Below the pieces are notes generated by a model. That model worked only from the letters and a program-made list of their open reading frames with translations, ran no database searches and was not told the origin of the DNA. Both the position numbers and the translations under genes were made by a program. Positions 2,917 through 32,433 of a stretch of 64,000 nt of DNA are shown here, piece after piece. The stretch comes from a virus (Duplodnaviria > Caudoviricetes), in the IMG/VR virus record IMGVR_UViG_3300010998_000005, positions 1-64,000 of that record; one strand, given 5' to 3'. Position 1 is the stretch's first letter. Each line of letters starts with the position of its first letter.

Positions 2917-3822
2917 TTAGAATAGTGTAGGTTGCTTTTGTTCTATCACATCTTTTAGTAAGTTCTTTCTTGTATAATACTTAGATTGCATTGTTGCAAA
3001 CATATCGGGTTGTATATTCTTTTCAAGATTGCTGCACGCATCAATATAGAAACGCTTGCTGACTTCCATGCCATAGGCTTTGCGTCCAAGTGATGCAGCA
3101 GCCACCAATGTACTACCACTTCCTGCGCAAGGGTCGATAACCACATCATCAGGGTCGGTAAACAATTCTACCAATCGTTTCAACAAAGGTATAGGCTTTT
3201 GTGTTTCATGGGTGCGTTCCATTCCTAAATCCCTTACCCAATCCATACAATTAAAAACCATTTGACCGTTGTTATTGAACTTTGGCAGTTTGTCACGATA
3301 GAGTATCAATCCATATTCGCAATTACCCACCACACGCATATTTGCTTTAAGCACTTGCGCTGAATAGTTTTTGCGGAATACAAGGTTTATGTAATGCTTG
3401 AAGCCGTAACGTTTCGCAAGTTCTATAAGGTAGAACTGTTGCATAAACTCGCAAAAGACTATCATACAAGGTGCGCTTGTTGAAGTTCTGCCCCCCCCAT
3501 TTTCTTTTGGTTCGGGTTTAAGCATTTGTGAAGCAAAGTGCATAAATTCAGCAGGCTTGAAATTCTCGTCAGTTACAAAGAATGTTTCGCCTGCTTTGTC
3601 GCTTTCTCCGTTCTTGTTATTGCCACCGATATACCAAGAAGGATTGCTACCATAAGCCTTGTCACCTAACGAATAAGGTATATCCGTAAGGATAAGTTGC
3701 GCTTTTGGTATGCCATAACGTTTGAAGTCTTGAAAAGAACTATTGAATAGTCCGACACGATTGTTGAGCATTCTAAATTCTGGATTCTCGACAGTTGCTA
3801 CGTCTTTTGTTGTCAGTTTCAT
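2917..3822 (-). CDS. DNA amino-methyltransferase (N6-A/N4-C, beta class)
   Basis: Motif IV LILTDIPY precedes motif I DPCAGSGST; HETQKP motif; C-terminus QPTLF. Confidence 0.9.
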   Translation of the reverse strand: MKLTTKDVATVENPEFRMLNNRVGLFNSSFQDFKRYGIPKAQLILTDIPYSLGDKAYGSNPSWYIGGNNKNGESDKAGETFFVTDENFKPAEFMHFASQMLKPEPKENGGGRTSTSAPCMIVFCEFMQQFYLIELAKRYGFKHYINLVFRKNYSAQVLKANMRVVGNCEYGLILYRDKLPKFNNNGQMVFNCMDWVRDLGMERTHETQKPIPLLKRLVELFTDPDDVVIDPCAGSGSTLVAAASLGRKAYGMEVSKRFYIDACSNLEKNIQPDMFATMQSKYYTRKNLLKDVIEQKQPTLF

Positions 3823-22976: not shown

Positions 22977-23138
22977 AATTAGGGTACTATATAAAGCCCA
23001 ACCGAAAGAATCCGAGCAAGGGTGTGGTGTATAGCATTGAAGGCATTGCACCTTGTATGTGCGATTTTTCTGGGGGGGGGTAATTTAGTGCCGACAATAG
23101 TAGTAAAAGATGAACGGGAAAGTAAAGAAACTGTTTAA
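22958..23138 (+). CDS. TRD-like cassette 8, interrupted at a G9 tract (23072-23080)
   Basis: With G8 it reads MRDRIIKLGYYIKPNRKNPSKGVVYSIEGIAPCMCDFSGGGNLVPTIVVKDERESKETV; with G9 a TAA follows immediately. Confidence 0.72.
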
Positions 23139-23252
23139 CATCTACGGCTTTGATGGCGGCAACTTCGCAGGGAATGTGTACGACCCTGAATATATCAGTC
23201 CTGCCCTCAGCACAATGGGGGGGGTAATCAGCAACCTTTAATAATTACAGAT
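23110..23252 (+). CDS. TRD-like cassette 9, interrupted at a G8 tract (23217-23224)
   Basis: With G9 it reads MNGKVKKLFNIYGFDGGNFAGNVYDPEYISPALSTMGGGNQQPLIITD and fuses in frame to the C-terminal half. Confidence 0.75.
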
Positions 23253-23525
23253 ATGGAACAGAAACAAAAAATCACCTTGCCTAAAGAATTAGAGGGCAAG
23301 AAGTTTAGAATCAGAAAACTTACTCCGAGAGAATGCGGACGTTTGCAAGATGTGGATGATAAAGACATTGACATCATCGAGAACGCAGGTTTGAGTAATT
23401 CAGCAATGTATAAATTGTACGGGAATAGTATAACTTTATCGGTCTTATTTTTCATTTTTGAAGAATTATTTATACCTTTGCACCCGAAAAGGGGCAAAGA
23501 GCCTATTCAATTATTATTATTTTGA
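23253..23525 (+). CDS. DNA cytosine-C5 methyltransferase, C-terminal half (motifs IX-X)
   Basis: IRKLTPRECGRLQDV (IX), MYKLYGNSI (X); ends IQLLLF. Confidence 0.9.
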   Translation: MEQKQKITLPKELEGKKFRIRKLTPRECGRLQDVDDKDIDIIENAGLSNSAMYKLYGNSITLSVLFFIFEELFIPLHPKRGKEPIQLLLF

Positions 23526-23526
23526 T

Positions 23527-24822
23527 ATGAGAAAGGAAAAAGTAATTCAGATGGATTTAGATGGAAACTACATTTCCGTCTTTGAAAGTGCAGTTGCTGC
23601 TTCTAAAGCATTAGGAGTTGGTTGTGGTAACATAAGTTTATGTTGTCGTGGACTTGCGGACAGAGTAAAAAATTATCGTTTTAGGTATGTTGATGATGTA
23701 CTAAACGAAAAAGCCGTGAAAATTCGACAAGTACGACACAACAAAGCGTCAGATAACCACAAGAAGGCATGGATTCCGAAAAGGAGAAAGGTTTATCAAT
23801 TCTCTTTAGATGCAGTATTGATTGCTTGCTATAAAAACGCAGATATAGCATCAAGTAAAAACGGAATCCCAAAGCATCTAATATTCCAATGCTGTAATGG
23901 GACAATCATCCAAAGCGGAGGGTATATATGGAGTTATAATAACAAAGTAGAATCTGTATTGAAGAACGATATTCCAACTGAACAAGGAGAAGAGTGGCGT
24001 GATGTAGTCGGGTACGAAGGTCTTTATATGGTAAGTTCTTTTGGTCGAGTTTGGAGTTTAAGGAGGAGAACAGAAAAAGTCGGGAATTTGATAGGTGGAT
24101 TTATGCTTACAAACCATATAGACAATAGGGGGAGAACGTCCAACACGCTAACAACAAAAAATGGGGAAAAAGTTAATGCAGTAACCGCTCGTCTTGTTGT
24201 AATGTCTTTTATTCCTAATCCAGACAACCTTCCTCAAGTAAACCATAAGGATGAAAATCCATTAAACAACCATGTGGATAATCTTGAATGGTGTACGGCT
24301 AAATATAATTGCAACTATGGAACAAGGATTGAAAGGATTAAAGAGAAGCAAAACATACCAATACTCCAATACACACTGAATGGTGAATTTGTTGCAGAAT
24401 ACGCTTCAATGCACATTGCCGCGGATGCTATAAATGCAGATGCAGGACACATTTGTGATTGTTGCTTGGGAAATAGGTCTTATGCCTATGGTTTCTTTTG
24501 GCGTTACAAAGATGATGAAATGTATAATTCTGCCAAAGTAAGGCTGCAAGATAAAATTTCCGCAAGTAAAAAATCGAGAGCAGACAAGTTTACGGCGAGA
24601 GCATTAAATGTAGTACAACTTGATATGAACGGTAAATATATACAGACACATCAGTCAAGTAGGCTTGCAGCGGAAAGAGTTGGAAGTTTCCGACCAATGA
24701 TTATAAATTGTTGCAATGGGAAAATATCAAATGTTAAAGGCTACAAGTTTATGTACGAGCGAGATTTCCGCAAGATGTTCATAGAAACGGAAAACGAAAG
24801 CCAACAACTAAGTTTATTCTGA
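23527..24822 (+). CDS. Free-standing HNH homing endonuclease with NUMOD4 and repeated NUMOD1-like domains
   Basis: EEWRDVVGYEGLYMVSSFGRV (NUMOD4); VNHKDENPLNNHVDNLEWCT (HNH); repeated V.Q..LDG..I..F/Y.S...A modules; ends QQLSLF. Confidence 0.9.
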   Translation: MRKEKVIQMDLDGNYISVFESAVAASKALGVGCGNISLCCRGLADRVKNYRFRYVDDVLNEKAVKIRQVRHNKASDNHKKAWIPKRRKVYQFSLDAVLIACYKNADIASSKNGIPKHLIFQCCNGTIIQSGGYIWSYNNKVESVLKNDIPTEQGEEWRDVVGYEGLYMVSSFGRVWSLRRRTEKVGNLIGGFMLTNHIDNRGRTSNTLTTKNGEKVNAVTARLVVMSFIPNPDNLPQVNHKDENPLNNHVDNLEWCTAKYNCNYGTRIERIKEKQNIPILQYTLNGEFVAEYASMHIAADAINADAGHICDCCLGNRSYAYGFFWRYKDDEMYNSAKVRLQDKISASKKSRADKFTARALNVVQLDMNGKYIQTHQSSRLAAERVGSFRPMIINCCNGKISNVKGYKFMYERDFRKMFIETENESQQLSLF

Positions 24823-24827
24823 TATAA

Positions 24828-25637
24828 ATGGGAGAAAGTATGATTGAACTTGACCATATCTATTGTGAAGATTGTTTAATCGGCATGAAGCGGATTCCTG
24901 ACGGGAGCGTGGATGCGGTGATTTGCGATTTGCCGTATGGGACAACCGCCTGCGCCTGGGACTCCGTGATACCCTTCGACAAGTTGTGGGAGCAGTACCG
25001 ACGTATCTGCAAAACAAATGCTCCGATAGTGCTGTTTGGCATAGAGCCATTTACGGCGGCTCTCATTATGTCGAATGTAAAGGAGTTTAGGGAGAAATTA
25101 ACATGGGAAAAACATAAACCGAGTAATATTGGCAATGCAAAGTACATGCACCTAAAATATTCGGAAGACATTGTAGTATTCTCCCGTGGAAAATGCACTT
25201 TTAATCCTCAAATGCAACCAAGAATAAGCGACAGAGTAAGAGAGGCGCAAAAAGGGAACAGTAAGCAATGGCGTAGTAATCGCAAGGAAACTGGCGAAGT
25301 GTCTTTTGCAACGCAATATGAGCCGCGAGATTGGAACTCATTTGATGCTGATAAGAAATACCCAGGAAATGTATTTTATTTCCCAGCCGTTGTTTCTAAT
25401 TCCCACGAGAAATGCGACCACCCCACCCAGAAGCCCGTTGACCTGCTGCGCTATCTCGTGCTGACCTACACCAACGAGGGCGACACGGTGCTCGACAACT
25501 GCATGGGCAGCGGCACGACGGCCATCGCCTGTATCAAGGAAAAGCGGCACTTTTTAGGATTCGAGCTGAATGAAGATTATTACAAGAAAGCAATCAAGAG
25601 AATAGAAGTTGAAAAATCTCAATTAACGCTATTTTGA
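24828..25637 (+). CDS. DNA amino-methyltransferase (N6-A/N4-C, beta class)
   Basis: DAVICDLPYG (IV), HPTQKP, VLDNCMGSGTT (I); ends QLTLF. Confidence 0.92.
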   Translation: MGESMIELDHIYCEDCLIGMKRIPDGSVDAVICDLPYGTTACAWDSVIPFDKLWEQYRRICKTNAPIVLFGIEPFTAALIMSNVKEFREKLTWEKHKPSNIGNAKYMHLKYSEDIVVFSRGKCTFNPQMQPRISDRVREAQKGNSKQWRSNRKETGEVSFATQYEPRDWNSFDADKKYPGNVFYFPAVVSNSHEKCDHPTQKPVDLLRYLVLTYTNEGDTVLDNCMGSGTTAIACIKEKRHFLGFELNEDYYKKAIKRIEVEKSQLTLF

Positions 25638-25638
25638 C

Positions 25639-26202
25639 ATGAAAGAAGAATGGAAAGAAATAGATGGTCATAGTGGGTACATGGTATCTAACTATGGAAA
25701 CATAAAAAGCCTGTCATTTAACAAGACTGGTGTAGAGAAAAAACTTACACCATGCGTTGATAAGAAAGGCTACCTTTTTGTGTGTCTTCACGGTAAACAA
25801 TTAAGGGTACATAGACTTGTGGCATTAGCATTTATACCAAAAGTTAATGGAAAAGAACTAATCAACCACATCAATGAGGATAAACAGAATAATGCCGTAT
25901 GGAATTTAGAGTGGTGTACCGCATCTTATAATCTTAATTACAATGGTAATAGAGAAAGGATTTCCAAGAAGCACAAAAAGAAAGTGTATGCTTATAAAGA
26001 TAAAGAGTTATTTCAATCTTTCGACAGTATAACAGAAGCCGCTAAAGCGTTCGGTGTTTCTATCAATAATATATCTTCGTGTTTACACGGAAGAAAGAAA
26101 CAAGCATGTGGGTGTGAATGGTCATTCGAGTTGAACAAGGAATACTACGACAAAGCCATGAAGCGCATCGACAACGAACGCCGACAACTGACATTATTTT
26201 AA
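25639..26202 (+). CDS. Free-standing NUMOD4-HNH endonuclease
   Basis: EEWKEIDGHSGYMVSNYGNIKS; RVHRLVALAFI; INHINEDKQNNAVWNLEWCT; ends QLTLF. Confidence 0.9.
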   Translation: MKEEWKEIDGHSGYMVSNYGNIKSLSFNKTGVEKKLTPCVDKKGYLFVCLHGKQLRVHRLVALAFIPKVNGKELINHINEDKQNNAVWNLEWCTASYNLNYNGNRERISKKHKKKVYAYKDKELFQSFDSITEAAKAFGVSINNISSCLHGRKKQACGCEWSFELNKEYYDKAMKRIDNERRQLTLF

Positions 26203-26444
26203 TTATCACCCCGAACCCCGAAAGCATAACAATAAAACTATGTAACATTCAAAAGGAGATACAACTATGACACAATACATCAACAAAGCCGCTGTAGTGG
26301 CGGAGAGTTCAACAGTTGCGACTTTATGACGTTCTCTCCGCGAAAAGGTTTTGTATGTAGCAAATATTTTGATGACTGAGTATGCGTATGATGCCGAATT
26401 TGGCACTTTTCGTGGCTTCTGGCAGCTTCGAATCGCAAAATGGT

Positions 26445-26520
26445 GTAGTTATCATGTCGGTTGGAGAAATGCGCTCAGAGCGGCTTAAATGCGTTTTTGG
26501 TTTTTTAAGTTAATAAATTC
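26445..26520 (-). repeat. Dispersed intergenic element, copy 4
   Basis: Plus strand GTAGTTATC-N-AAATGCGCTCAGAGCGGCTTAAATGCGTTTTTGGTTTTTTAAGTTAATAAATTC. Confidence 0.7.
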
Positions 26521-26532
26521 AAAGAATAAGAT

Positions 26533-28050
26533 ATGGAAGAAAAGAAGACACACATCTACAATCTGCAACTGACAGAAAAGCAGGCAACGCTGTTGTCCTA
26601 CGCTTGCGACAGACTTTCACGAATCATCTGCGGGCAAGACTGGACTTATCAAGAGTTCATGGAAGAAGCGTGGGAGAAACGCTGCAAGGAAGCCACTGGC
26701 AACATGATGGATGATAAGTGGGATGGCGGTTGGCACAATATGCGGCATGAAGCGGAAGAAATCAGCAAGAACATCAAGAAGAGGTTTTGGGGTTTGGAAC
26801 GTAATGCCATGTACGGCATCCACTATGACGATGCGGCGGACATTCTATTTGACTTGCACCAATGTATCAGACACCAACTTTGGCTCGATAGACCCGAAAG
26901 CGAGAAATCGACTATCACGGTGGATGCTTCCGAGGCAATGCGTGTTGGAAATGAGCCGTTGGCAATTATTGAACGGATAAAATATAAAGAACTATGACAA
27001 GAGAACAATTCGAGACGTTAAAGGTTGGCGACAAAGTACGCCATGCTTTCGGTGGTATCGGTGTTGTCACGGAGAAAGAGGAAAACGGCTATACGGTGAA
27101 AGATAAAGGCTTTGACCAAGGTGATGGAATGTGTGAGGTTTCATTTGCATGGAATGAAGGTGAGATATGGTTGCCAACAGGGGTAATGGAATCTCCTTCT
27201 AAAACATTTCCAAGAGTTAATGAAGAACGGATAAAAGACAAGGCGGAATAGTTATGTTACAGGCGAGAACGAAAGAACAGAATGAGCACATCGAAGGTAT
27301 CGTAAAAAAATATGTCGACGTGAATACGCAAAACAGCAAATTTGTTTCTGCGGATGTTTATAAAAACTTTGAAGAACTTGTTGAAATCAATTTAAGATGC
27401 GAAGATTGTGATGAATTATTATCCATTGATATTCGTTTCGACATGATGGCTGAAATTGTCGATTACTTGCGAAAAGAGAATGAACAAATAGAAACTCCAA
27501 CTCGATGTGAAGTTTCTTTTTCTGACGGTATATTGAGTTATGGCTTGCTGCATACACCACATGAGGAGGTGATGAATTTCTGTAAGAAACTTGCATGGGT
27601 GAAAGGTAATGACTTTGACTATTATTACAAGCAGTACGTTAAAACAAGAAAGATAACGATACGAATGAGGGAGAAGTAATATGAACAGAAGACAGAAAAA
27701 TAAATACCTAAAGCGTAATGTGCCATGTGCACACGAATATCGGTATATGGCATATTACGGTGATATAGCGACACGTTGCCTTTGCAAAACGAGCAAAGAA
27801 GACAATGACTGCTGTAATACGCTGAAACATGAAAATAAAAATAGTTCCAAGATGGGAGCAATTTATGGCTCCAGAAGGGTATGAAACAAAACTATACGAT
27901 GTGTATCATGGCTTCACCCACTTTCTGTTCTTTACCAAGTGGAAGTTAGATAAGGCAGGTCTTGACGAACAAGAAATGAAAGAGTATCTGCAACCATTTA
28001 TGTTTGGTCATTCACCCTTATTGGTATCTAAAATTACGATAAACTTATGA
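26533..28050 (+). other. Five hypothetical genes (26533-26997, 26994-27251, 27254-27679, 27681-27884, 27829-28050)
   Basis: Overlapping or abutting ORFs on the coding strand. Confidence 0.6.
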
Positions 28051-31248: not shown

Positions 31249-31290
31249 CAAAGTTAAATGTTTAACGAAAACGAAAAAGAAAAAGAAAGT

Positions 31291-32433
31291 ATGAAAATTC
31301 AATTAAACGTAAATGACATCCTTACGCCGCTTGTAAACGCAACAAGCGTGGTAGGCACAAAGAACTCTATCGCAATCCTTTCTTGCGTAATGATTGAGGT
31401 AGGAAAGAACAACACCCTTATAATTACGGCAAGCGATGGCTCGCAATGGGTTTCCACTAAGGCGACAATCATAGAAACGGATATTGCCGAGGGAACAAAG
31501 TTCTGCATCGAAGCAAAGGACTTAAAGCAAGCTCTGTCTAACCTTTCAGGGCGTATCGTAGAACTTAACTTTGATGAAACAGCGCACACGATGACTTGTG
31601 CTTTCGCCAATGGTAAGTTTACGTTGCCATACCTTAGTGCAGATGAATACCCACAAAGCACACCAATAGAGGGTGATGACAAGGTGGAATACATCTTAGA
31701 CGCACCAAAGATTGCAAGAATGATTGCGCAAACCAACTACGCAATGGCTAACGACCCATTGAGAATGGTTATGAACGGTGCGTACTTTGATTTCCATAAG
31801 GATGACCTTTCCATTGTGGCAAGTGACGGACATAAACTCGCACTTTGCCAAGATAAGACCATAAAGAACGAAGATGGCGAGGACAAATCCTTTATCCTTA
31901 TGGCTAAGTCTGCAAGCATCCTATCTACGTTAATAGACAAAGAGGAAGGACAAATCAAGATTGCTTTCAACGGTAATAATGTTTGCATCAACAACCAGAG
32001 CTTCAGACTTACGGCAAAACTCATAGAGGGCAGGTTTCCCAACTATAATGCCGTGATACCAAAGGATAGCGACAAAAGGGTTAAGGTGAACAAGGATGAT
32101 ATACTTAGCGCAATGAAGCGCATACTGCCTATGAGTAGTACAACGACCGAGATTGTAAAGTTTATCTTTTCACCAAACCTGCTTACTTTGTTCTGCGAGG
32201 ATGTAGATTACAGCAAGTCTGCAAGTGAAACAATGCAAAGCGACTACCCTAATCAAGCGGACTTTACCATAGGCTTTAAGGGTAGCGCAGTCGTACAATC
32301 TTTGCAAGCCATAGAGGGTGACGAAGTTGTGATACGAATGACCGAAAGCAGCAGGGCAGCGATATTCACAAGCGCAACAACCGATGAAACGTATTCACAC
32401 ATAGCATTGATAATGCCCATATTGGTAGATTAA
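31291..32433 (+). CDS. dnaN: DNA polymerase III beta sliding clamp homolog
   Basis: About 380 aa; ADEYP, ASDGHKLA, LIEGRFPNYNAVIP, C-terminal LIMPI. Confidence 0.93.
   Translation: MKIQLNVNDILTPLVNATSVVGTKNSIAILSCVMIEVGKNNTLIITASDGSQWVSTKATIIETDIAEGTKFCIEAKDLKQALSNLSGRIVELNFDETAHTMTCAFANGKFTLPYLSADEYPQSTPIEGDDKVEYILDAPKIARMIAQTNYAMANDPLRMVMNGAYFDFHKDDLSIVASDGHKLALCQDKTIKNEDGEDKSFILMAKSASILSTLIDKEEGQIKIAFNGNNVCINNQSFRLTAKLIEGRFPNYNAVIPKDSDKRVKVNKDDILSAMKRILPMSSTTTEIVKFIFSPNLLTLFCEDVDYSKSASETMQSDYPNQADFTIGFKGSAVVQSLQAIEGDEVVIRMTESSRAAIFTSATTDETYSHIALIMPILVD

What the first reader, a model, noticed from the sequence alone, without database searches (positions are those of the whole stretch)
25560..26202. 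Second, independent HNH insertion with the same tail-swap architecture
Seen: the MTase ends FELNEDYYKKAIKRIEVEKSQLTLF (25560-25637); the next HNH ends FELNKEYYDKAMKRIDNERRQLTLF (26125-26202); both begin TTCGAG(C/T)TGAA. The HNH tail has C/G-ending codons (aac aag tac tac gac gcc cgc atc gac) like the MTase body just upstream of 25560, whereas the current MTase tail is AT-rich like the HNH. This points to the HNH tail as the original MTase end. Two cases within 3 kb suggest a repeatable intron-free homing strategy aimed at methylase 3' ends.
Basis: partly seen in the sequence, partly recalled or inferred. Interest (0 to 1): 0.7.

Follow-up and report, generated by a model that had tools for sequence, protein, structure and literature searches.

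The report
Homing nuclease cassette swapping methylase tail
A selfish HNH nuclease gene sits inside the last 75 bases of a phage DNA methylase gene; it carries a spare end that keeps the methylase whole and reads on into the displaced end, a layout known from fungal mitochondria and apparently not described in phages.

Summary
The N6/N4 methylase (24828-25637) and the next gene, an I-HmuI-like HNH nuclease (25639-26202), end in homologous 25-residue tails: 18/25 residues and 50/78 bases match, far above chance.

The unit 25560-26202 (spare tail, HNH, displaced tail) is a mobile cassette.
- A second phage (L082) carries the same cassette in a different methylase. DNA identity is 66% in the methylase body, 73-83% across the cassette and 30% after it.
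- A sister cassette (L035) can be compared with uninserted alleles. Homology of 93% stops at the GFE junction and resumes at a decayed tail behind the HNH.
- The first cassette (23253-24822) has the same build. The last 18 residues of its HNH match the native tail of uninserted C5 methylases.

- The GC3 argument is weak, because uninserted relatives also lose GC3 in the tail.
- The displaced tail is the family-typical, native-like one, but its synonymous divergence matches the cassette, not this methylase body. It probably travels with the HNH.

Both tails end in QLTLF, a beta-clamp-binding-type peptide, and the phage encodes its own DnaN.

This scan had already noted the layout on this same DNA. 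The closest known kind is the mobile-ORF C-terminal replacement of fungal mitochondria, so this is a new variant of a known kind.

The parts
24828..25559 (+). Body of a beta-class N6/N4 DNA methyltransferase (PF01555), up to the Gly-Phe-Glu strand (motif II region)
   Evidence: Pfam PF01555, E 3.5e-30, over residues 28-256. AlphaFold model has pLDDT 88.5 with strand 241-245 at the junction. The last 134 nt are 89.6% identical to L013, and that homology stops at 25552.
25560..25637 (+). Cassette-borne replacement tail of the MTase: last helix of the fold plus terminal QLTLF and the stop codon
   Evidence: 83% DNA identity to the L082 copy, against 66% for the adjacent body; pN 0.05, pS 0.64. 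Helix 249-264 in the model, then the free QLTLF. Tails 22/25 identical occur on MTases whose bodies are only about 50% identical.
25639..26124 (+). I-HmuI-like HNH homing endonuclease body (NUMOD4, HNH_3, NUMOD1/I-HmuI NUMOD-like). Its ATG lies one base after the MTase stop and it has no stop codon of its own.
   Evidence: Pfam hits. Match to PDB 1u3e over residues 4-165, the full length of I-HmuI. 79% DNA identity to the L082 copy. Homologues P0002-P0005 are 73-83% identical.
26125..26202 (+). Displaced MTase tail read in frame as the C-terminus of the HNH, ending in QLTLF and a stop
   Evidence: 18/25 identical to the resident tail. Lies beyond the end of the I-HmuI homology. Predicted as a lone C-terminal helix 167-185. 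All five members of the HNH clade keep it in frame. Closest MTase homologues carry this type of tail.
25620..25634 (+). QLTLF, a beta-clamp-binding-type pentapeptide at the MTase C-terminus
   Evidence: Five ORFs of the 78-kb genome end in Q[LP]xLF, against 0.03-0.09 expected. The consensus QL(S/D)LF is given in PMC9690074.
26185..26199 (+). QLTLF at the C-terminus of the HNH, captured together with the tail
23253..23525 (+). Closing half of the C5 MTase with a divergent replacement tail (first cassette)
   Evidence: PF00145 C-terminal match. Its tail differs from the native tails of uninserted relatives L276-L283.
23527..24822 (+). First HNH endonuclease. Its ATG lies one base after the C5 stop, and its last 18 residues (24766-24822 with the stop) are the native C5 MTase tail.
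   Evidence: Pfam NUMOD1/NUMOD4/HNH_3. 16/18 identity of the last 18 residues to the native tail of L276. TGA-N-ATG geometry.
31258..32433 (+). Phage-encoded DnaN (beta sliding clamp), the likely docking partner of the QLxLF tails
   Evidence: PF00712, PF02767 and PF02768, all above their cut-offs.
2917..3822 (-). Third MTase (PF01555), ending in QPTLF

Best explanation
The stretch 25560-26202 is a free-standing, intron-less homing-endonuclease cassette. It is lodged in the 3' end of a phage N6/N4 DNA methyltransferase gene, directly after the codons for the conserved Gly-Phe-Glu strand.

The cassette has three parts:
1. A spare MTase tail with its own stop codon. It restores the last helix of the methylase fold and the terminal QLTLF.
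2. An I-HmuI-like HNH nuclease gene that starts one base after that stop. It is probably co-transcribed and translationally coupled, and it has no stop codon of its own.
3. A displaced MTase tail that the HNH reads in frame.

Inferred mechanism:
- The nuclease nicks or cuts cassette-free MTase alleles at the conserved body/tail junction.
- Repair from a cassette-bearing genome copies the cassette in. The conserved MTase C-terminal module serves as the left homology arm and the tail as the right arm.
- The carrier genome is protected because the insertion splits the site and the spare tail is recoded (10 changes in its first 33 bases).
- The host pays no cost because the MTase stays complete.

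The displaced tail gives the nuclease the MTase's clamp-binding-type peptide. Whether the nuclease uses it is open.
For: Shown:
- The tails are homologous far beyond chance.
- The HNH is a full-length I-HmuI homologue, and its homology ends exactly where the extra tail begins.
- The same three-part unit lies in a different MTase of another phage. Identity to L082 is 66% in the body, 83% in the spare tail, 79% in the HNH, 73% in the displaced tail and 30% downstream. Synonymous divergence is 0.97 in the body against 0.61-0.69 across the unit.
- Sister cassette L035 against the uninserted alleles L015, L019 and L058: 93% identity up to the GFE codons. About 557 nt of foreign tail plus HNH follow. 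Homology then resumes at 77-85% on a tail remnant that maps to the uninserted allele's own tail. That remnant is out of frame and carries a stop.
- Four further HNH proteins, 73-83% identical, keep an MTase tail in frame.
- The closest MTase homologues (84-89% identical) carry tails of the displaced type at the diagnostic positions.
- The spare tail is under strong purifying selection (pN 0.05, pS 0.64).
- The tail is a structural helix plus a free end in the MTase model.
- No intron or other Rfam family lies in 23000-26600.
- The first cassette in the window has the same build and the same TGA-N-ATG joint.

Inferred: the cleavage site, the repair route and the immunity of the carrier.
Against: - No cassette-free allele of this very phage was found. 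The nearest MTase DNA (L013) stops matching at the junction, and its tail is only 65% identical to the displaced tail.
- The displaced tail shares the cassette's history and not the body's, so it cannot be shown to be this body's own end.
- An uninserted relative (L020) carries a tail of the spare type, and its homology runs through the spare tail.
- Nuclease activity and target are untested.
- Only 3 loci with DNA and 4 proteins without context carry the MTase cassette.
Confidence: 0.85

Rival explanations
1. Reverse polarity. The MTase with its present tail is intact and native, and an HNH gene that already carried a foreign MTase tail landed just behind its stop codon.
For: The uninserted relative L020 has a tail of the same type as the resident one, and its homology runs through that tail. 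GC3 also drops in the tails of uninserted relatives.
Against: The resident tail is 83% identical to the L082 copy, while the adjacent bodies are 66% identical with saturated synonymous sites, so the resident tail belongs to the shared mobile unit. L013 homology of 89.6% breaks at the junction. In L035 the resident tail is only 45% identical to the tails of sister alleles whose bodies are 93% identical. The closest MTase homologues carry the other tail type.
Confidence: 0.07
2. The HNH tail is not a relic. It is a selected clamp-docking module that the nuclease gained by local duplication of the neighbouring gene's 3' end, with no homing involved.
For: The tail stays in frame in all five members of the HNH clade. 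Its dN/dS is about 0.17. QLxLF ends are enriched in this genome and the phage has its own DnaN.
Against: The sister lineage has the tail out of frame and decaying. The presence/absence polymorphism lies exactly at the junction. The whole unit sits in different MTase bodies. The part of the tail before QLTLF is an MTase fold element with no partner in the HNH; it is modelled as a lone helix of lower confidence. Selection for a docking module is compatible with homing, so this reading is more an addition than a rival.
Confidence: 0.05
3. The HNH lies in a self-splicing intron or an intein, and the true MTase is made by joining 25559 to 26125.
For: I-HmuI, the closest solved relative, is encoded in an intron. 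Joining the two points restores an open MTase frame (sequence).
Against: No Rfam family matched at E up to 1 in 23000-26600. The upstream ORF already ends in a complete, strongly conserved tail with its own stop. The HNH is not in the MTase frame, which excludes an intein.
Confidence: 0.02
4. Assembly artefact or chimeric contig that duplicates the gene end.
For: The window comes from a metagenome-derived virus record.
Against: The two tails differ at 28 of 78 bases. The architecture recurs in independent samples and sources: L082, L035 and P0002-P0005.
Confidence: 0.01

Closest known systems
Mobile-ORF (mORF) C-terminal replacement in fungal mitochondrial genes (Allomyces macrogynus atp6; Glomus atp6, atp9, cox2, nad3; PMC3630166)
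   Same: An endonuclease ORF enters the 3' part of a conserved gene together with a foreign C-terminal segment that is in phase with the gene body. The native C-terminal segment is left downstream. In some cases the ORF has no stop and runs in phase. The native segment is closer to relatives than the inserted one (compared).
   Different: Here the host is a phage, the targets are DNA methyltransferase genes and the nuclease is an I-HmuI-like HNH, not a LAGLIDADG or GIY-YIG enzyme. The nuclease is a separate, translationally coupled ORF. The displaced tail is kept as the working C-terminus of the nuclease and carries a clamp-binding-type peptide.
Intron-less homing by free-standing phage endonucleases (T4 SegF/SegG and the Mob HNH enzymes; own knowledge. 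See also PMC10448857 on nucleases at recombination boundaries.)
   Same: A free-standing nuclease gene lies between or at the edge of conserved genes, is expected to cut the nuclease-free allele nearby, and spreads with co-conversion of its flanks.
   Different: Those genes lie between genes, or split a gene as mobE does in Aeh1 nrdA. In the text I searched I found no case that brings a replacement gene end and fuses with the old one.
I-HmuI (PDB 1u3e), the group I intron-encoded HNH nicking endonuclease of Bacillus phage SPO1
   Same: Same domain order, with collinear homology over the whole I-HmuI chain.
   Different: No intron here, and 22-25 extra residues of MTase origin at the C-terminus.
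Clamp-tethered DNA methylation (eukaryotic DNMT1-PCNA; PMC9690074) and bacterial QL(S/D)LF clamp-binding proteins
   Same: A terminal pentapeptide fits the bacterial consensus. It is found on three MTases of two unrelated families in one phage that encodes DnaN.
   Different: Binding is untested. I found no report of a bacterial or phage MTase, or of a homing endonuclease, with a clamp-binding motif.

Membership tests
Free-standing HNH homing endonuclease (I-HmuI-like) | NUMOD4 - HNH_3 - NUMOD1/HTH domain order with the HNH core conserved | tested here: met
   Pfam hits above their cut-offs. 1u3e match over the full chain. His58, Asn76, His77 and Asn89 are invariant or nearly invariant across 81 homologues.
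Free-standing HNH homing endonuclease (I-HmuI-like) | Presence/absence polymorphism at one precise site in otherwise homologous genes | tested here: met
   Met for the sister cassette: L035 against L015, L019 and L058. Not found for this very phage.
Free-standing HNH homing endonuclease (I-HmuI-like) | The element's history is decoupled from that of its host gene (mobility) | tested here: met
   Window against L082: 66% identity in the body, 73-83% in the cassette, 30% downstream; pS 0.97 against 0.61-0.69.
Free-standing HNH homing endonuclease (I-HmuI-like) | Site-specific cleavage of the element-free allele and conversion of it | not testable with these tools
   Needs an enzyme assay and phage crosses.
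mORF-type C-terminal replacement | The inserted C-terminal segment is in phase with the host gene body and completes it | tested here: met
   The ORF 24828-25637 is complete. The Pfam domain runs to residue 256, and the model shows strand 241-245 and helix 249-264.
mORF-type C-terminal replacement | The native C-terminal segment is displaced downstream of the endonuclease ORF and is closer to relatives than the inserted one | tested here: met
   L035: the remnant is 77-85% identical and the inserted tail 45% identical to sister alleles. Window: at positions 5, 6 and 9 of the tail, most of the closest homologues carry the displaced tail's residue. In whole-tail identity the displaced tail scores higher than the spare tail in 6 of the 10 homologues whose bodies are at least 80% identical (lower in 2, tied in 2), and in 123 against 31 homologues over all 178 compared. 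However, it shares the cassette's divergence.
mORF-type C-terminal replacement | Mitochondrial host with a LAGLIDADG or GIY-YIG nuclease, as in all described cases | tested here: not met
   Phage genome and an HNH nuclease. It works like a mORF but belongs to a different nuclease family and host.
Intron- or intein-encoded homing endonuclease | A surrounding self-splicing RNA, or an in-frame intein | tested here: not met
   No Rfam hit at E up to 1. The HNH is in a different frame and is preceded by a stop.
Beta-clamp-binding proteins (QL[SD]LF motif) | A pentapeptide fitting the consensus at an accessible terminus | tested here: met
   QLTLF forms the last five residues of both proteins. It lies outside regular structure in the MTase model and at the end of a lone helix in the HNH model.
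Beta-clamp-binding proteins (QL[SD]LF motif) | Physical binding to the hydrophobic cleft of DnaN | not testable with these tools
   A phage DnaN is present. Binding needs a pull-down, ITC or a complex model.
Beta-class N6/N4 DNA methyltransferase (PF01555) | Pfam domain with a DPPY-type motif IV before the GSG-type motif I | tested here: met
   PF01555, E 3.5e-30. DLPY lies near the N-terminus and GSGTT near the C-terminus in the translation.

The most novel reading that the evidence does not exclude
The conserved C-terminal module of these gut/rumen phage methylases ends in a clamp-binding peptide and tethers methylation to the phage's own sliding clamp. A family of HNH homing nucleases has made this module its landing pad and, by reading into the displaced tail, has taken over the clamp tether. 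The nuclease then rides the replication clamp and meets cassette-free genomes while they replicate. That would be a clamp-guided homing endonuclease and a prokaryotic counterpart of DNMT1-PCNA.
Probability: 0.3. Interest if true: 0.75.

Novelty: new variant of a known kind. Interest (0 to 1): 0.55.

Why it matters
It shows that phage homing nucleases can invade the coding 3' end of a gene without an intron or intein, by carrying a recoded spare end. This trick was documented so far for fungal mitochondrial mobile ORFs.

It explains why MTase genes of these phages are mosaics, with a very widely shared C-terminal module on diverse bodies.

It offers natural pairs of target and immune sites for an I-HmuI-like nuclease.

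It links two untested ideas: clamp-tethered phage methylases and a nuclease that inherits their tether.

For annotation, it warns that a 25-residue MTase-like end on an HNH protein is a captured gene end and not a new domain.

Tried and rejected
The contigs of the tail-bearing HNH proteins P0003-P0005 and of the MTases with the spare-type tail (P0241, P0242) could not be read.
- I looked for syntenic cassette-free relatives through the downstream gene 26533-26997. It gave only non-syntenic loci.
- Scans with an HNH alignment were swamped by distant HNH genes of at most 45% identity. A narrower alignment found only L082 again.
- Cultured-phage records hold many HNH relatives of at most 48% identity, and none of the 15 matches listed, of about 2,000 records, reaches into the tail.
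- GC3 as a marker of the native tail was rejected, because uninserted relatives show the same drop.
- The within-genome similarity of the first pair of tails is weak (score 27, shuffle p 0.04). That case rests on uninserted relatives instead.
- Intron, intein, assembly artefact and reverse-polarity readings were rejected, as set out under the rival explanations.
- L133 in the survey was borderline (score 44) and was not accepted.

Full report
**Observation.** The window is the first 64 kb of a 78-kb virus record with direct terminal repeats. ORF 24828-25637 is a PF01555 N6/N4 DNA methyltransferase. ORF 25639-26202 has the NUMOD4, HNH_3 and NUMOD1/I-HmuI-NUMOD domains of an I-HmuI-like homing endonuclease. 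Both end in a 25-residue tail that starts with the same TTCGAG and ends in QLTLF and a stop.
- Identity is 18/25 residues and 50/78 bases, and the differences are concentrated at third codon positions.
- The similarity is far above chance. The score is 90, against a maximum of 41 in 2000 shuffles and 45 in 300 cross-locus controls.
- The stated GC3 contrast is real: 0.31 in the resident tail, 0.65 in the HNH-borne tail and 0.87-0.93 in the body just upstream.

**What the tail is in each protein.** The Pfam MTase domain runs to residue 256 and therefore includes the first 12 tail residues. In the AlphaFold model (pLDDT 88.5) the junction lies at the end of strand 241-245. The tail forms the last helix (249-264), and QLTLF is left free at the end. 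An MTase cut at 25559 would thus lack a fold element.

The HNH aligns with I-HmuI (1u3e) from residue 4 to 165, which is the whole I-HmuI chain. Residues from about 163 to 187 are therefore extra. They model as a lone helix of lower confidence.

**The cassette is a unit that moves.** L082, from another phage contig, has an HNH 84% identical. It has the same spare tail before it and the same kind of tail fused behind it, inside a different MTase. Segment identities to the window are:

| Segment | DNA identity | Synonymous divergence (pS) |
|---|---|---|
| Last 141 nt of the MTase body | 66% | 0.97 |
| Spare tail | 83% | 0.64 |
| HNH | 79% | 0.69 |
| Displaced tail | 73% | 0.61 |
| Next 100 nt downstream | 30% | not computed |

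. Both tails therefore share the history of the HNH and not that of the MTase bodies. This excludes the reverse reading, in which the resident tail is native. It also means that the displaced tail cannot be shown to be this body's own end.

**Uninserted alleles.** No cassette-free allele of this very phage was found, but the sister cassette in L035 (HNH 63% identical) has several. Against L015, L019 and L058:
- L035 is 85% identical over the upstream gene and the MTase start, and 93% identical up to the GFE codons (L035:4681).
- About 557 nt of divergent tail plus HNH follow.
- Homology then resumes at L035:5239-5317 (77-85%) with the uninserted alleles' own tails, which in those alleles are contiguous with the body.
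- That remnant is out of frame with the HNH and carries a stop in place of the Gln codon.
- The tail now used by the L035 MTase is only 45% identical to the tails of its sisters.

This is a direct demonstration of tail replacement plus displacement at the same junction.

**Which tail is native-like in the window.**
- The closest MTase proteins (84-89% identical) mostly carry tails of the displaced type. One matches it at 21/25 against 16/25 for the spare tail.
- At tail positions 5, 6 and 9, where the two tails differ, most of the homologues whose bodies are at least 80% identical carry the displaced tail's residue.
- Over all homologues the displaced tail is the closer one in 123 cases against 31.
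- L013 matches the body at 89.6% up to 25552 and then stops.

L020, which has no HNH, has a tail that begins like the spare tail, and its homology runs through that tail. In the light of the L082 and L035 data it instead identifies the kind of MTase from which the spare tail derives. A tail 22/25 identical to the spare tail sits on MTases whose bodies are about 50% identical.

**How general it is.**
- Four more HNH proteins (73-83% identical) keep an MTase tail in frame. Their tails resemble different native tail types. The sister clade ends at the normal HNH terminus.
- The first cassette in the window is real. The last 18 residues of the HNH at 23527-24822 match the native tail of uninserted C5 MTases at 16/18, while the window's C5 tail is divergent. 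It also shares the TGA-N-ATG joint.
- The two HNH genes are distant paralogues with different domain layouts, so the insertions are independent.
- In a survey of 162 distinct loci of this HNH family, a duplicated end of the upstream gene was significant only in the window, L082, L035 and L149. In L149 the host gene is a DnaG-type primase.

The strategy therefore recurs, but it is a minority habit of the family.

**The clamp peptide.** Five ORFs of the genome end in Q[LP]xLF, against 0.03-0.09 expected. They are the three MTases, from two unrelated families, and the two HNH genes. Uninserted C5 MTases and many N6/N4 MTases of related phages end the same way. The motif fits the bacterial clamp-binding consensus, and the phage encodes DnaN. 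The displaced tail shows pN 0.19 against pS 0.61. It is not free of constraint, but it is less constrained than the spare tail, which has pN 0.05. This is compatible either with use by the nuclease or with repeated conversion from working MTase tails.

**Rivals excluded.** No Rfam family, and hence no recognisable intron, lies in 23000-26600. The HNH is out of the MTase frame, so it is not an intein. The two copies differ at 28 of 78 bases and the layout recurs in independent samples, so it is not an artefact. No excess of promoter-like sites separates the genes, which fits co-transcription and coupled translation.

**Comparison and novelty.** The layout matches the mobile-ORF C-terminal replacements of fungal mitochondria: an inserted C-terminus in phase, an endonuclease ORF, and the native C-terminus downstream. 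It differs in host, target gene and nuclease family, and in the retention of the displaced end as the nuclease's C-terminus. In the literature library I searched I found no phage case and no clamp-motif-bearing homing nuclease or prokaryotic MTase. Earlier notes of this scan on the same DNA reached the same reading. I had formed it before reading them, and I tested it independently.

Noticed in passing
window 24888-25037 and 25398-25559 against 25038-25397: The MTase is a compositional and homology mosaic. The two conserved catalytic modules have GC3 of 0.7-0.93 and match many phage MTases at the DNA level. The middle, presumably the target-recognition part, has GC3 of 0.3-0.4 and matches none. 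L035 shows the same pattern against its sisters. This suggests swapping of recognition modules between conserved arms.
   Followed up: partly
L082:2155-2175: The MTase that hosts the cassette in L082 is broken by a frameshift at a run of seven G. Its spare tail ends in QLTLDFK and not QLTLF, and its stop overlaps the HNH start. This may be phase variation or a sequencing error.
   Followed up: no
L149:1474-3100: A related HNH (about 40% identical) sits at the 3' end of a DnaG-type primase gene. A 21-residue copy of the primase end lies directly after the HNH stop, giving the same tail-duplication layout on another host gene.
   Followed up: partly
L020:1237-1971; proteins P0250, P0263, P0265: Some MTase tails look like chimeras, with a spare-type first half and a displaced-type second half. 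They could be scars of cassette loss by recombination between the two tail copies, or simply the pool from which the spare tail came.
   Followed up: no
window 2917-3822 (- strand): A third MTase (PF01555) ends in QPTLF, the tail type typical of the L014-L034 group of MTases.
   Followed up: partly
L016 and L017, 3202-4780: Two tandem PF01555-type MTase genes both end in the same QPTLF-type tail. Several other loci (L005, L049, L082) carry arrays of three to five MTase genes, most ending in an LF-type terminus.
   Followed up: no
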